Shown here: piece by piece, positions 4,854 through 44,580 of the stretch | Position numbering within the stretch: position 1 is the stretch's first letter | How the letters are laid out: each line of letters opens with the position of its first letter | Assembly (NCBI GenBank): GCA_951406725.2 | Contig: OX597815.1 | Coordinates: forward strand, 194,804,001-194,868,000 | Source: Octopus vulgaris | Taxonomy: Eukaryota | Length of the DNA: 64,000 nucleotides | Reading direction: 5' to 3' | Notes under the pieces: generated by a model | What the model was told of the DNA's origin: nothing | Databases searched by the model: none | Seen by the model: the letters and a program-made list of their open reading frames with translations, nothing else | Translations under genes and position numbers: made by a program

Positions 4854-5140
4854 AGGAGACCCCCTTCGGTCATGAACGAACGATCATGGTATTGCACCTA
4901 GAAAGCTACCCTCCGAGGCACAAGTCCGGGCAATGTTCTTCTTATGGAAGGCCGGCAGTCGCCCATGCGTAGAAGACTCATCTCTCCACACTTCTGCTGT
5001 ATATCCAAGTGAAAGGCAAAGGCCAATTCAGCTTGGCACCAGTGATGTCGCAACTCATTTCCACAGCTGAGTTAACTGGAGAAGCGTGAAATAAAGTGTC
5101 TTGCTGACAACACGCAGCTAGGTCCGGGAATAGAGGCAGT
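4852..5140 (-). mobile_element. tRNA-derived SINE (family D), head truncated
   Basis: Homologous to 29470-29812 (cttcggtcatgaa..attgcacctagaaag..gaaaggcaaagg..gtcgcaactcatttc). Confidence 0.8.
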
Positions 5141-16999: not shown

Positions 17000-19165
17000 C
17001 AATAGCAATAGAGAACAACAACCAAATATATATTTTTTGTAAATGAATAATTTGGTGTGTTTATTTTAATGCCTATCAATGTATACAATACGTTTCTTTG
17101 TTCTAGGTAACACACACGTGTGAAACTTGATAAAAACAATAAAATTTGTAAACATAATGAAGGCTAACGCAACGTTAAATTATGTGAGGGAAAACGAAAT
17201 AATTATACAGCAGCCACGGTAGTTAGTAAAGAAAGTGTGTATTTCCTAGATCTCTTGATATAGACAAGTGGAAATCCAAAGCAAACATTGTAATAAACAT
17301 GCAGGAAAGATAGAAATTAGGAGAAATACATTCCTCTTTCATAACTAAATCAATAAATAAACGACACAACTGAAAAATAAAAAGAATAGACAATAAAACA
17401 AAATGTATCGAAAGCGATGTACCCAAGATCAAAGAACGTCTGTAACAACAGATCTTTGTTAAATTACAAAGAATCCGACGGTATGAAAAGCGACAACGAT
17501 TCTTTCAACAAAACATTCGACTCCAACCCAATAGTAGCTAAAATAAGATGGAAAAAAATCAATGCAATTCCAACAAGGAAAGCAGATAAACTCTGAGGTA
17601 ATCAGCGTTGATGAGATTATTCAAAGTAACAAACACCACATCTGGAAAATCGTAGGCGTCCATATTAAATCATAAGTAGACAAGACTGATGTAAGGTGGC
17701 GAGCTGGCAGAAATGTTAGCACGCCGGGCGAAATGCGTAGCCGTTACATTGTGAGTTCAAATTCCGCCGAGGTCGACTTTGCCTTTCATCCTTTCGGGGT
17801 CGATTAAATAAGTACCAGTTAAGCACTGAGGTCGATTTAATCGACTTAATCCGCCGTTTGTCTGTCCTTGTTTGTCCCATCTATGTTTATCCTCTTGTGG
17901 GTAATAAAGAAATAGGTATTTCGTCTGCCGCTACGTTCTGAGTTCAAATTCCGCCGAGGTCGACTTTGCCTTTCATACTTTCGGGGTCGATTAAATAAGT
18001 ACCAGTGAAGCACTGGGGTCGATGTAATCGACTTAATCCGTTTGTCTGTCCTTGTTTGTTCCCTCTATGTTTCGCCCCTTGTGGGTAATAAAGAAATATG
18101 TATTTCGTCTGCCGCTACGTTCTGAGTTGAAATTCCGCCGAGGTCGACTTTGCCTTTCATCCTTTCGGGGTCGATAAAATAAGTACCAGTTACGCACTGG
18201 GGTCGATATAATAGACTTAATCCGTTTGGCTCTCCTTGTTGGAACTCTCTGTGTGTAGCCTCTTGTGGGCAGTAAAGAAATGATAAGAGACTGCTGTAAA
18301 GGTTGATATGGCTGGAAAAGGAAATACTGATCAATAAAGCTACGAATGAAGAATGTAGAAGAAGAACAGTCGAGGCATCTCATGGATTGAAATTGTTGAA
18401 TATGTTCGGCAGATATAATACAGTACCATTAAACACGCAATTACATCAAATATGGTATGAGTAGACAGCACACAATTATGAAGATTATAAACAATTAATC
18501 TAAACATGTTAGACGAGAGTAGACTTTGGTACAAATGTAAACAATGAATGTTCGTTTTAGACGGTTAATTTGAAGTTGCCACTTGCTTCCCATTAAAAAA
18601 TTAAAATCATTCATAACGACAGTAACATTAAGTTATTAATTGCGTTTTGGGTGTATATCAAAAGAGAATTAAATCCGATTAATGAAGTAATAGATTGCCA
18701 ATATAGAAGTTATACTTCTAAATAGGTTATAAAACTGGTCGTTACGGGATTAGCACGATTGGCAAGTGAAACAAGAAAATGACAATAACATTTAGAATAC
18801 ACCACTCAAAATCTGACTGGAAGTTTATAATTATCGTGAATACAAGGTTATACGCTTCTCTACTATTAGAAAAATACTATAAAATAACAATGAAAACAAA
18901 GCCAAGAAAACTAGTAAAATAATTACAGAAGTCAAACGATTATAAATATTTCGAGAAAACTAAGAAATACAAAGGTAAACCCGAAATAACACATTGCAAT
19001 AAGGCGAAATTAGAACCAGTACAGCTTCTGAAAAAGCTAAAATCTAATCCAAATTGCGTATTGAATTGATGGATCTCACAAGAATAACACTCGAAGGAAA
19101 TAAACAGGGTAGAAATAGCCAAGGAAAAGTCACAAATTTGGCTAGAGGAACTCAAGAATTTAAAC
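17000..19165 (+). mobile_element. Heavily decayed R4/Dong-type (RLE) retrotransposon, interrupted by a SINE array
   Basis: IKERL*QQIFVKLQRIRRYEKRQRFFQQN (17430-17515); CCKG*YG..ILINKA.NEECRRR..SWIE (18290-18400); EIAKEKSQIWL (19110-19145). Confidence 0.7.
17693..18282 (+). mobile_element. SINE family A concatemer: head plus 3 units of ~184 bp
   Basis: Junctions aagaaataggtatttcgtctg at about 17907-17927 and the variant aagaaatatgtatttcgtctg at about 18091-18111. Confidence 0.92.
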
Positions 19166-29469: not shown

Positions 29470-29812
29470 GAAGCTCCCTTCGGTCATGAATGACCACGGA
29501 ATTGCACCTAGAAAGTTATCCTCTGAGACACAAGTCTGGGCAAGGTTGTTTATGGAAGACCAGCAGTTGCCCATGCATACCAGACTCCCCATCTCCAACA
29601 ACCGATGTTATCCAAGGGAAAGGCAAAGGTCAATACAGCATGGCACCAGTGGCGTCGCAACTCATTTCTACGGGTGAGTGAACTTGAGCAACCTGAAATA
29701 AAGTGAGCTGGTCATGATCGCAACGCACAGCCCAGTCCGGGAATTGAACTCACTACCACATGATTATGAGCCCGATGTTGTAACCACTGAGCTCTGTGCA
29801 TTCACACTTCTC
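29470..29812 (-). mobile_element. Full-length SINE family D
   Basis: Head gagctcagtggttac..gagttcaattcccgg; homologous to 4852-5140. Confidence 0.85.
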
Positions 29813-29849
29813 CACTACAAACTATATATATATATATATATATATATAA

Positions 29850-29994
29850 TTGCAGCGTGGAAGGTGTTTATAAGCCATTTAAGGAACACACAAAACCGTT
29901 AGATTCACTTCAACAGTTAAATTTAACTTGTCAAAATATTTTCGTCGCTTTGAGACCGCGACCTGTTCACTGACAAAGCTTCGTGCTGCATCTC
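29850..29994 (-). mobile_element. 145-bp (TA)n-flanked insert containing a hammerhead fold
   Basis: TA runs on both sides; complementary termini UGCAGC-AC-GAAG / CUUC-CAC-GCUGCA. Confidence 0.65.
29927..29977 (-). ncRNA. Minimal type I hammerhead ribozyme fold with G3-C8 swapped core
   Basis: UUUGUCA-GUGAACA-G-GUCGC[GGUCUCAAA]GCGAC-GAA-A[AUAU]U-U-UGACAAG. Confidence 0.75.
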
Positions 29995-30470
29995 ATATAA
30001 ATATATATATATATATTTGAACCTCTGTCACATTATATTTTATTACACTACGGAAGTAACAAAAGAAAATTTGAAGTTAGCGATATCTTTTATATTCAAT
30101 ACACAACCTGGCTAACACCACCAGTTGACTCCTGGTCGTTTCTTATGCAAGAATTCAAATTGTGTCTGAGGGATCTTCAGTATCGAAAATTCTTTCTTGC
30201 CATTGTCATTGAAGTAGTCGCTGTTTAATACATTTATCTATGGGCTCCAGAGACATATGAACAAAGGCGTATCAGCAAGAGCCATTTTTTTACCTTCTAG
30301 TGTTACCTTCGAATGCAAAATCAACTATAGACTTCCTAGTTTCTTCTAAAAGTACGGTGGGATTTGAAGAAAATTTGGCAGCCATTTCTAGCCGTCAAAT
30401 GTTCCATAGTTTAGCAGCAGTAGTAGTAGTAGTAGCAGCAGTGGTAGTAGTCGCAGCAGCAAAAACGGTA

Positions 30471-31594: not shown

Positions 31595-32374
31595 ATTTCT
31601 TATTTCTTTATTGCCTGCAAGGGGCTAAACATAGAGGGGACAATCAAAGATAGAGGTACAAAGGGATTAAGTCGATTACAGCGACCCCAGTGTGTAATTG
31701 GTACATAATTTATCGACCCCGAAAGGATGAAAGGCAAAGTCGACCTCGGCGGAATTTGAACTCATAACGTAAAGACAGACGAAATACCTATTTCTTTACT
31801 ACCCACAACGGGCTAAACACACAGGGGACAAACAAGGACAGACAAACGGATTAAGTCGATTACATCGACCCCAGTGCGTAACTGATGCTTAATTTATCGA
31901 CCCCGAAATAATGGAAGGCAAATTCGACCTCGGCGGAATTTGAACTCAGAACGTAATGGCAGACGAAATATCTATTTCTTTACTACCCACAAGGGGCTAA
32001 ACATAGAGAGGACAAACAAGAACAGACAAACGGATTAAGTCGATTATATCGACCCCAGTGCGTATATCAACCCCAAAAGGATGAAAAGCAAAGTCAACGT
32101 CGGCGGAATTTGAACTCAGAAAATAGCGGCAGACGAAATACCTATTTCTTTATTATCCACAAGGGGCTAAACACAGAGGGGACAAACAAGGACAGACATA
32201 GGTATTAAGTCGATTACATCGACCCCAGTGCGTAACTGGTACTTAATTTATCGACCCCGAAAGGATGAAAGGTAAAATCGACCTCGGCGGAATTTGAACT
32301 CAGAATGTACCGGCAGACGAAATACCGCTGAGCATTTCGCCCGGTGTGCTGACGATTCTGCCAGCTCGCCGCCT
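31595..32374 (-). mobile_element. SINE family A concatemer: head plus 4 units
   Basis: gaaata unit starts at 31781, 31965, 32135 and 32319 (periods 184, 170, 184). Confidence 0.93.
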
Positions 32375-39910: not shown

Positions 39911-40325
39911 AGGCGGCGAGCTGGCAGAAACGTTAGCGCGCCGGACGAAATGCGTTGCGGTATTTCGTCTGTCTTTCCGTTCTGAGTTCAAATTCCGCCG
40001 AGGTCGACTTTGATTTTCATCCTTTCGGGGTCGTTTAAATAAGTACCAGTTATGCACTGGGGGTCGATGTAATCGACTTAATCCGTTTGTCTGTCCTTAT
40101 TTGTCCCCTCTGTGTTTAACCCCTTGTGGGTAGTAAAGAAATAGCTATTTCGTCTGCCGCTACGTTCTGAGTTCAAATTCTGCCGAGGTCGACTTTGCCT
40201 TTCATTCTTTTCGGGGTCGATAAATTAAGTACCACCTACACAGTGAGGTCGATGTAATCGACTTAATCCCATTGTCTGTTCTTGTTTGTCCCCTCTATGC
40301 TTAGCCCCCTGTGGGCAATAAAAAA
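39911..40325 (+). mobile_element. SINE family A dimer
   Basis: Junction aagaaatagctatttcgtctg at about 40136. Confidence 0.92.
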
Positions 40326-40639
40326 ATATATGTATGTATATACTACATACATGTACACACGCACACTGACCCTGAATGACCTTCAAATTTCGCACCATTG
40401 CGCTTTTGTTTTTCTATTTTGAATCTCATAGAAAAAACAATACTTAGAATACAGTTTTCTGATGGGAGGAGCTAAATCATTGGTGCTAGCAAACACTACT
40501 AAAAATGGAAAGAAATTAGCGGGGCGAAGTTAACAAACGTGATGAGAGATATTAAAGATGATCGCTAAATGTGTGGGCGTGCGATGTATTTTCGGTTAAA
40601 AGCAATCACGAGTATTGAGATGCGTTCGTGATTATAATC

Positions 40640-43481: not shown

Positions 43482-44580
43482 TTAAGACATAGAGATGTTT
43501 CTTATTTCTTTACTGCCCACAAGGGGCTACACACAGAGGGAACAAACAAGGACAGACAAACGGATTAAGTCGATTATATCGATCCCCATTGCGTAACTGG
43601 TACTTACTTAATCGACCCCGAAATTTGAACTCAGAACGAAATATATATTTCTTTACTACCCACAAGGGGCTAAGCATAGAGGAGACAAACAAGGACAGAC
43701 AAAGAGATTAAGTCGATTACATCGACCCCAGTGCGTAACTGGTACTTAATTTATCGACCCCGAAAGGATGACAGGCAAAGTCAACCTCGGCGGAATGTGA
43801 ACTCAGAACGTAACGGCAGACGAAATATACCTAAGTATTTCGCCCGGCGTGCAATCGTTTCTGCCAGCACGCCACCTTAAGACATAGAGATGTTTCTATA
43901 AATGTATAATATACTTCTGTGTATTAATATACTTTTGTGCGTTAGCATATGTATATATATTTCTTTACTACCCACAAGGGGCTAAACATAGAGGGGACAA
44001 ACAAAGACAGACAAAGAGATTAAGTCGATTACATCGACCCCAGTGCGTAACTGGTACTTAATTTATCGACCCCGAAAGGATGACAGGCAAAGTCGACCTC
44101 GGTGGAATGTGAACTCAGAACGTAACGGCAGACGAAATATAGCGAACTATTTCGCCCACGTGCTATCGTTTCTGCCAGCTCGCCACCTTAAGACATAGAG
44201 ATGTTTCTATAAATGTATAATATACTTCTGTGTATTAATATACTTTTGTGCGTTAGCATATGTATATATATTTCTTTACTACCCACAAGGGGCTAAACAT
44301 AGAGGGGACAAACAAAGACAGACAAAGAGATTAAGTCGATTACATCGACCCCAGTGCGTAACTGGTACTTAATTTATCGACCCCGAAAGGATGACAGGCA
44401 AAGTCGACCTCGGTGGAATGTGAACTCAGAACGTAACGGCAGACGAAATATAGCGAACTATTTCGCCCACGTGCTATCGTTTCTGCCAGCTCGCCACCTT
44501 AAGACATAGAGATGTTTCTATAAATATATAATATACTTCTGTGTATTAATATACTTTTGTGTGTTAGCATATGTATATAT
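43482..44580 (-). mobile_element. SINE A dimer with a 21-bp TSD, followed by a 311-bp tandem triplication of SINE plus flank
   Basis: TSD ttaagacatagagatgtttct at 43482 and 43877; gacatagag repeated at 43881, 44192 and 44503. Confidence 0.93.

What the first reader, a model, noticed from the sequence alone, without database searches (positions are those of the whole stretch)
29927..29977. Natural hammerhead ribozyme fold with a G3-C8 swapped catalytic core in a 145-bp (TA)n insert
Seen: the minus strand folds as a complete minimal type I hammerhead. Stem I is 7 bp (UUUGUCA/UGACAAG, one G-U), the core reads GUGAACA instead of CUGANGA, and one extra G precedes a 5-bp stem II (GUCGC/GCGAC). GAA follows, then a single A-U pair capped by the palindromic tetraloop AUAU, with U at position 17. 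Established: C3-G8 is a tertiary Watson-Crick pair in the active hammerhead, and the engineered G3-C8 swap restores pairing. PLE-associated minimal hammerheads have a palindromic loop 3 and cleave as dimers. Inference: a double change at exactly the two paired positions is unlikely to be random decay, so this may be a functional variant that CUGANGA-based searches miss. The element's termini also pair (UGCAGC-AC-GAAG / CUUC-CAC-GCUGCA), closing the whole RNA.
Basis: partly seen in the sequence, partly recalled or inferred. Interest (0 to 1): 0.9.

Follow-up and report, generated by a model that had tools for sequence, protein, structure and literature searches.

The report
Swapped-core hammerhead in octopus Penelope retrotransposon
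This stretch is a short copy of the front end of a Penelope-type jumping gene, and thousands of copies in this octopus genome carry a hammerhead RNA fold with two paired core letters swapped; related elements change the same pair in other matched ways, so it is likely a real but slow self-cutting RNA, although cutting has not been shown.

Summary
The fold is real, and G3-C8 is the family state: 4,485 of 4,835 pattern-matched copies. The 147-bp insert is not a closed stand-alone RNA. It is the 5' leader/pseudo-LTR of a Penelope-like retrotransposon (RT plus C-terminal GIY-YIG). It holds the hammerhead, the first ten codons and a likely cap-derived G. A young subfamily with long open frames keeps G3-C8 (29 of 30 loci), and one complete element has it in both repeats. 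Homologous ribozymes show three Watson-Crick states at 3-8 (G-C here, C-G in sister families, U-A in another organism) plus compensatory changes in stems I-III. That supports a minimal type I hammerhead under selection. Cleavage is untested: insertion ends do not map to the cleavage site, and RNA reads showed no end pile-up. Best reading: a slow, dimer- or protein-assisted ribozyme whose uncleaved RNA is the usual template, as shown in vitro for anole Poseidon. Natural U3-A8 is published; I found no natural G3-C8 in the searchable papers (two key papers not held). This scan noted G3-C8 hammerheads behind Penelope-like RTs in two other genomes (unchecked). New variant of a known kind.

The parts
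29848..29994 (-). Short insertion of the 5' leader / pseudo-LTR of a Penelope-like retrotransposon (copy without the optional ~57-nt tail)
   Evidence: Best-scoring genomic copies are 96-98% identical; same unit lies behind the GIY-YIG end and before the ORF start of long copies; 3' ends fall at two fixed places
29994..29994 (-). Non-native G before the leader, likely the reverse-transcribed RNA cap
   Evidence: 25 of 32 distinct copies that begin at this A without native upstream sequence have G here, where the native base is C or T; 11 of 14 outside the biased set. Cap reading is inference from recalled knowledge
29993..29993 (-). Inferred transcription start of the element RNA, 60 nt upstream of the predicted cut
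   Evidence: 5' ends of copies cluster here
29927..29977 (-). Minimal type I hammerhead fold (stem I, core, extra G, stem II, GAA, palindromic helix III)
29965..29970 (-). Swapped core pair: G3 at 29970 and C8 at 29965
   Evidence: 4,485 of 4,835 pattern-matched copies; C3-G8 and U3-A8 in homologues
29935..29940 (-). Palindrome AAUAUU (A15.1 to U16.1), able to form 6 bp between two ribozymes
   Evidence: sequence; inner pair covaries A-U / G-C / U-A
29933..29934 (-). Predicted cleavage site, after U17 (29934)
   Evidence: position by hammerhead numbering; cleavage not shown
29849..29878 (-). First ten codons of the PLE reading frame (ATG at 29878-29876), inferred start
   Evidence: In complete element L127 this ATG follows a stop and opens the frame that runs into the RT region; the sister family has a homologous N-terminus at the same place
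29823..29847 (.). (TA)n run at the element's 3' side (target site)
29995..30016 (.). (TA)n run at the element's 5' side (target site)

Best explanation
The stretch is a hammerhead-shaped RNA motif with a G3-C8 core in the 5' leader (pseudo-LTR) of a Penelope-like retrotransposon family, and it is likely a slow, conditional self-cleaving ribozyme that would cut only as a dimer or with help from the element's own protein. Shown: the family, its RT plus GIY-YIG frame on the same strand, the motif in both repeats of a complete element, and covariation of the 3-8 pair and all three stems across related families. Inferred: transcription starts at 29993; most RNAs stay capped and uncut; the RT starts inside the first codons of the ORF (two sites about 57 nt apart), copies back through the hammerhead to the cap, and inserts the product into (TA)n. 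That gives short copies such as this one. Inferred and untested: in tandem transcripts two motifs pair through the palindromic helix III, the G3-C8 pair stands in for C3-G8, and occasional cleavage and ligation yields the unit-length or circular RNA from which longer-than-unit copies arise.
For: G3-C8 is the amplified state: 4,485 copies, against 244 with another base at 8 and 106 with another base at 3; controls 0. It follows the GIY-YIG end on the same strand in 29 of 30 loci picked by the protein, most of them a young near-identical subfamily. L127 has 98.8% identical direct repeats, each with the motif. The sister family (54% aa identity, sister in the tree, support 97) has C3-G8 at the same position, with fully canonical cores in 7 of the first 100 rows. 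A relative from another organism (L222, 46% aa) has U3-A8 127 nt behind its ORF match. On 7 rows, 96.4% of cells pair, 7 of 12 pairs change on both sides, 0 of 500 shuffles reach this, and slid controls fall to 18-46%. Frangieh 2024 (PMC11167929, parts 1-2 of 4 read): in a PLE hammerhead C3G/G8C partly restores cleavage, cleavage needs the protein, unprocessed RNA is the main substrate, and the tail lies between two RT start sites. Two 3' ends and the 5' G fit this.
Against: No cleavage evidence. No pile-up of molecule ends in one RNA read set (1,424 reads laid, mostly read-through, 1-6 reads on the ORF). Only about 7 of roughly 53 truncations among the first 100 of 1,052 rows end at the cut site, no more than at another offset (counted by eye). 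Within the family, core positions mutate no less than downstream ones (2.3% against 2.3%); this is expected for dead copies but gives no support. The covariation rests on about four independent lineages. The young sister family and L222 carry C at position 9 instead of the conserved A, so the clade tolerates a core change expected to hurt catalysis. In this copy's own context the hammerhead stems form with probability under 0.5.
Confidence: 0.65

Rival explanations
1. The motif descends from a hammerhead and keeps its fold, including the 3-8 pair, but now serves as a structural element (RT binding, leader folding or translation control) and no longer cuts at a useful rate.
For: Templates appear capped and uncut; no insertion or read ends pile up at the cut site; A9 is replaced by C in two related lineages; hammerhead mutants did not affect insertion in vitro for anole Poseidon (PMC11167929).
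Against: The 3-8 pair is a feature of the active-site arrangement (PMC3088659 and PMC8495972 passages). It stays Watson-Crick in three forms while U4, G5, A6, G12, A13, A14 stay invariant, which is what catalysis requires.
Confidence: 0.22
2. The ribozyme died in the founder of this family, the two changes happened to be complementary, and the family kept amplifying because it does not need the ribozyme.
For: Naiad PLEs amplify without hammerheads (10.1101/2021.04.23.441226, passages). All G3-C8 copies may descend from one event. C8 to G recurs often in copies, so this site mutates easily.
Against: Subfamilies differ in loop II and outer stem I but not in core or inner stems. A second independent Watson-Crick swap exists (U3-A8). 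Two chance hits that land on a complementary pair, with no other core change, are unlikely.
Confidence: 0.1
3. The insert is a stand-alone closed element (MITE-like or retrozyme circle) defined by its paired termini.
For: The termini of this copy can pair; small tandem arrays of the unit exist (L148, L149, L164).
Against: 5' ends vary, many copies have inverted partners, 3' ends fall at two sites, and the unit continues into a PLE ORF on both sides in long copies. The terminal pairing is not predicted in the longer leader.
Confidence: 0.03

Closest known systems
Minimal type I hammerheads of metazoan Penelope-like elements (Cervera and de la Pena 2014, PMC4209133)
   Same: Located in pseudo-LTRs; extra base between positions 9 and 10.1; G10.1-C11.1; palindromic short helix III; U17 common; mostly dispersed single copies from truncated elements.
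   Different: Core pair is G3-C8. The paper reports C3-G8 and, in Schistosoma Cercyon, U3-A8 (parts 1-2 of 4 read; supplement file 2 searched by terms, file 1 not held). The extra base is G, where their consensus has H.
Poseidon hammerhead of Anolis carolinensis (Frangieh 2024, PMC11167929)
   Same: PLE leader hammerhead; tail between two RT start sites; AT-rich targets; unprocessed RNA as template; no read ends at the cut site.
   Different: There G3-C8 is an engineered partial-rescue mutant; here it is the natural state of an amplifying family. This ORF has the CX3CxxC linker of Neptune/Nematis type, and its start lies downstream of the ribozyme.
Natural hammerhead core variants (Perreault 2011, PMC3088659)
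   Same: Covariation of the 3-8 pair occurs in nature.
   Different: The passages read name U3-A8 only, and their filter rejected core variants in repeats unless tested.
Neptune / Nematis clade Penelope-like elements (as described in Craig 2021, 10.1101/2021.04.23.441226)
   Same: Single ORF with RT, CX2-5CxxC linker and C-terminal GIY-YIG; partial tandems, inverted 5' copies, tail, microsatellite targets.
   Different: Tail is about 57 nt rather than 30-40; clade not fixed by a tree with reference sequences.

Membership tests
Hammerhead ribozyme (type I) | Three helices around a core junction, stem I open | tested here: met
Hammerhead ribozyme (type I) | Invariant U4, G5, A6, A9, G12, A13, A14, A15.1-U16.1 and H17 | tested here: met
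   all present in the window copy; U17
Hammerhead ribozyme (type I) | Literal C3 and G8 of the CUGANGA consensus | tested here: not met
   G3 and C8; this is the variant under study
Hammerhead ribozyme (type I) | Watson-Crick pair between positions 3 and 8 | tested here: met
   C-G 4, G-C 2, U-A 1 of 7 rows
Hammerhead ribozyme (type I) | Compensatory changes in the stems among homologues | tested here: met
   7 of 12 pairs change on both sides; about four lineages
Hammerhead ribozyme (type I) | Match to an Rfam hammerhead model | tested here: not met
   no hammerhead row; none either for the canonical-core relatives L250 and L242, so the models miss this minimal type generally
Hammerhead ribozyme (type I) | Site-specific self-cleavage after N17 | not testable with these tools
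   needs an assay; indirect looks were blank
Hammerhead ribozyme (type I) | Loop I - loop II tertiary contact of fast hammerheads | not tested
   loop II varies between subfamilies; no contact was modelled
PLE minimal hammerhead | Lies in the pseudo-LTR on the ORF's strand | tested here: met
PLE minimal hammerhead | Extra base after position 9 and palindromic short helix III | tested here: met
   G at 29963; AAUAUU
Penelope-like element, EN+ | One ORF with RT and C-terminal GIY-YIG | tested here: met
   GIY-YIG PF01541 E 1.8e-5, above cut-off; RT only weak in Pfam (E 0.016) but YVDD motif present and homologues named RT-domain proteins
Penelope-like element, EN+ | Pseudo-LTRs, inverted 5' copies, optional tail | tested here: met
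Penelope-like element, EN+ | Intron in the leader (some PLEs) | tested here: inconclusive
   acceptor-like sequence upstream, but no fitting donor and no splice joint listed in reads
Neptune / Nematis clade | CX2-5CxxC linker before the endonuclease | tested here: met
   definition
Neptune / Nematis clade | Placement in an RT tree with named reference elements | not tested
   tree held no named references
Non-LTR retrozyme | Non-autonomous tandem repeats with a hammerhead in each unit | tested here: not met
   copies are mostly dispersed fragments of an autonomous PLE
MITE / TIR element | Fixed termini formed by inverted repeats | tested here: not met

The most novel reading that the evidence does not exclude
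This PLE clade runs on deliberately weakened hammerheads. The 3-8 pair has been exchanged three ways and A9 replaced by C twice because slow, protein- or dimer-switched cleavage is selected: capped RNA survives for translation and priming, and cutting happens only in tandem transcripts to rebuild the pseudo-LTR. The octopus genome would then hold a natural, copy-number-scored mutagenesis of a ribozyme active site, and motif searches built on CUGANGA would have missed a large class of PLE ribozymes.
Probability: 0.25. Interest if true: 0.75.

Novelty: new variant of a known kind. Interest (0 to 1): 0.55.

Why it matters
The G3-C8 hammerhead is known, in the papers I could read, only as a laboratory rescue mutant with partial activity. 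Here it is the state of a retrotransposon family with thousands of copies and young long-frame members, so a supposedly weak core is compatible with successful transposition. The clade gives three natural states of one active-site pair, plus A9C, as ready-made constructs for asking what PLE hammerheads do, which is still open. The likely cap G at the start of short copies offers genomic support for the in vitro finding that uncut RNA is the template. It also shows that CUGANGA descriptors undercount PLE ribozymes.

Tried and rejected
Rfam found no hammerhead at the site or at canonical-core relatives, so it is uninformative for this minimal type. MITE or closed-circle reading: rejected. Inverted pairs 2.7 kb apart (L061, L062) are not PLE ORFs but a larger inverted-repeat element carrying one insertion; this inflates copy counts. 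The GIY-YIG frame upstream in L002 belongs to another PLE with a canonical hammerhead. Splice-acceptor reading of the 5' cluster: no GAG-GT donor in four long copies and no splice joint among those listed; not excluded. The attempt to separate microhomology from free flanks was too permissive to use. A supposed sister family in L129/L162 appears to be a decayed copy. No RNA holder was listed (no evidence either way). IMG/VR had no relatives; PDB none. Of 8 metagenome relatives, only L222 gave a convincing hammerhead behind the ORF; most contigs are short. One search had one row with wrong coordinates and was redone. The careful tree did not finish; the quick tree is used.

Full report
Observation. 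G3 is at 29970, C8 at 29965, the extra G at 29963, G12 at 29943 and U17 at 29934. The 51-mer folds into stems I and II (z -2.35, 5 of 200 shuffles). A descriptor fitted to the site hits only it in the window, and 0 times in 100 simulated windows. Rfam gives no hammerhead. It also misses canonical-core relatives, so that blank says little.

It is a large repeat family, and G3-C8 is its consensus. The DNA search had 2,061 candidates, 40 scored, with top copies at 96-98%. With stems fixed exactly, 4,485 sites have G3-C8, 244 have G3 with another base at 8, and 106 have another base at 3; reversed-pattern controls were 0. That is 4,485 of 4,835. Among the first 100 of the 106, ten had C3 and none had C3-G8 (read by eye). 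The counts cover only well-kept copies and are inflated by a larger inverted-repeat element that carries one insertion. The genome is an octopus: a protein that NCBI labels Octopus vulgaris matches it at 100%. Runs of four to five coded organisms hold part of the stretch. In one search contigs of organisms A and B show the G3-C8 core in loose-end rows, and no listed difference fell on positions 3 or 8; 101 rows were hidden.

The parent is a Penelope-like element. Upstream of copy L052 lies a broken GIY-YIG frame on the same strand. A protein search found a young subfamily with near-identical copies and open frames up to 1,025 codons (the longest, L125, includes an inversion junction). In 29 of the 30 loci fetched the motif follows about 1 kb behind the frame, always with G3-C8, and differs from the window mainly in loop II and outer stem I. 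[quoted passage not shown] L127 is repeat-ORF-repeat, with at least 421 bp at 98.8% and the motif in both repeats; it carries one stop and one frameshift. The frame opens at an ATG that corresponds to window 29878. Copies end 3' at two places about 57-60 nt apart, often have inverted 5' partners, and often sit in (TA)n. These are the PLE hallmarks listed by Craig 2021 (passages). So the insert is leader, ribozyme and ten codons, and its paired termini are not the family's boundaries.

Covariation. The sister family (54% aa, sister in a quick tree with support 97) has a homologous ribozyme at the same place, with C3-G8, C instead of A at 9, and changed pairs in stems I, II and III. A degenerate clade pattern gave 10,752 matches, control 0. 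Its first 100 rows hold both families and 7 fully canonical C3-G8-A9 cores, one of them from a third family. Of 8 metagenome relatives, L222 (46% aa) has U3-A8, C9, U17 and a palindromic helix III 127 nt behind its ORF match. On an alignment of seven such motifs, 96.4% of 84 cells pair, 7 of 12 pairs change on both sides, 0 of 500 shuffles match that, and slid controls pair at 18-46%. The rows were chosen by me and stand for about four lineages, so this is strong but not large evidence. The canonical state in sister families makes C3-G8 the likely ancestor (inference).

Does it cut? Not shown. (a) 5' ends of copies cluster at the A equal to window 29993, 60 nt before the predicted cut. Of 32 distinct copies that start there without native upstream sequence, 25 have a G in front where the native base is C or T; 11 of 14 outside the set, whose query contained that G. 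I read this as the copied cap. That reading rests on recalled knowledge; one search listed no paper that I opened on it. Several junctions could also be explained by microhomology with an inverted copy, and my attempt to split these failed. A spliced-exon origin found no donor. (b) Truncations at the cut site are not enriched: about 7 of about 53 among the first 100 of 1,052 rows, with 7 at another offset too (by eye). (c) One raw RNA set from organism D gave 1,424 laid reads on both strands about equally; 90% ran on into unrelated sequence, 1-6 covered the ORF, and no end pile-up was listed. That is host read-through and tests little. (d) Core positions mutate like downstream ones among inserted copies (46 of 2,029 against 293 of 12,900), as expected for dead copies. 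(e) The young leader is predicted to form both stems at 0.93-1.0, this copy at under 0.5.

Mechanism. Frangieh 2024 (PMC11167929, parts 1-2 of 4; supplements not read) show for anole Poseidon that C3G and G8C abolish cleavage, the double mutant partly restores it, cleavage needs the protein, uncut RNA is the main substrate, no reads end at the cut site, and the tail lies between two RT start sites. Cervera and de la Pena 2014 (PMC4209133, parts 1-2 of 4, supplement file 2 by terms) report no monomer and low dimer activity for minimal PLE hammerheads and propose cleavage and circularisation. My genomic data fit both. I therefore put 0.65 on a slow conditional ribozyme, 0.22 on a fold kept for a non-catalytic role (A9C twice in the clade argues this way), 0.10 on a dead motif with a lucky pair, and 0.03 on a stand-alone closed element.

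Novelty. Natural U3-A8 is published (PMC3088659, passages; PMC4209133). Searches for G3-C8 spellings found it only as an engineered mutant or found nothing, and an octopus-Penelope-hammerhead search listed no description of this family (listings only). PMC6155905, PMC7229834, PMC10085705 and PMC6765202 were read as passages, and 10.64898/2026.07.22.740005 as part 1 of 5; none named it there. Lunse 2017 (about 150,000 PLE variants, recalled) and Przybilski and Hammann 2007 were not held, and their supplements could contain natural G3-C8. This scan has two unchecked notes of G3-C8 hammerheads behind Penelope-like RTs in other genomes and none for this sequence. If right, the swap recurs among PLEs.

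Verdict. Observation confirmed; interpretation partly supported; new variant of a known kind; interest 0.55.

Noticed in passing
G000 family-wide; e.g. L073, L076, L082, L138, L148, L171, L183, L230: C8 to G (giving an unpaired G3-G8) is about ten times more common than other C/G transversions (11 of 189 against 0.35%; 41 of the first 100 of 244) and occurs in every subfamily background. A mutation hotspot or RT slip; unexplained.
   Followed up: partly
L192-L221 (e.g. L197) and L222:2496-2540: The young sister PLE family, with many intact frames up to 1,312 codons and an Asn-rich insert, and the relative L222 both have C instead of A at core position 9; older sister copies have the canonical A9.
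   Followed up: partly
L034, L043-L045, L051, L054-L057, L059-L062: A larger element with long inverted repeats (arms over 2 kb, 97-98% between loci) carries one inverted pair of these leader copies and has spread it.
   Followed up: no
L148, L149, L164: Small tandem arrays of the leader unit separated by (TA)n, which could place several ribozymes on one transcript.
   Followed up: no
L002 (minus strand, about 450 nt behind a GIY-YIG frame), L034, L018, L204: Other hammerhead candidates with canonical cores, some with very long stem II loops, from other PLE families.
   Followed up: no
L084:3160-3200 (+): A further candidate with U3-A8 core, a 4-bp G-C stem II and a CGCG palindrome, seen twice in the loci.
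   Followed up: no
window 29476-29747 and 4862-5134: The left flank is another dispersed repeat (78% between the two places); the hammerhead insert sits in a (TA)n run beside it.
   Followed up: no
window 17740-18281, 31601-32326, 39961-40328, 43641-44580: Tandem arrays with units of about 184-311 bp, related in pairs or on opposite strands.
   Followed up: no
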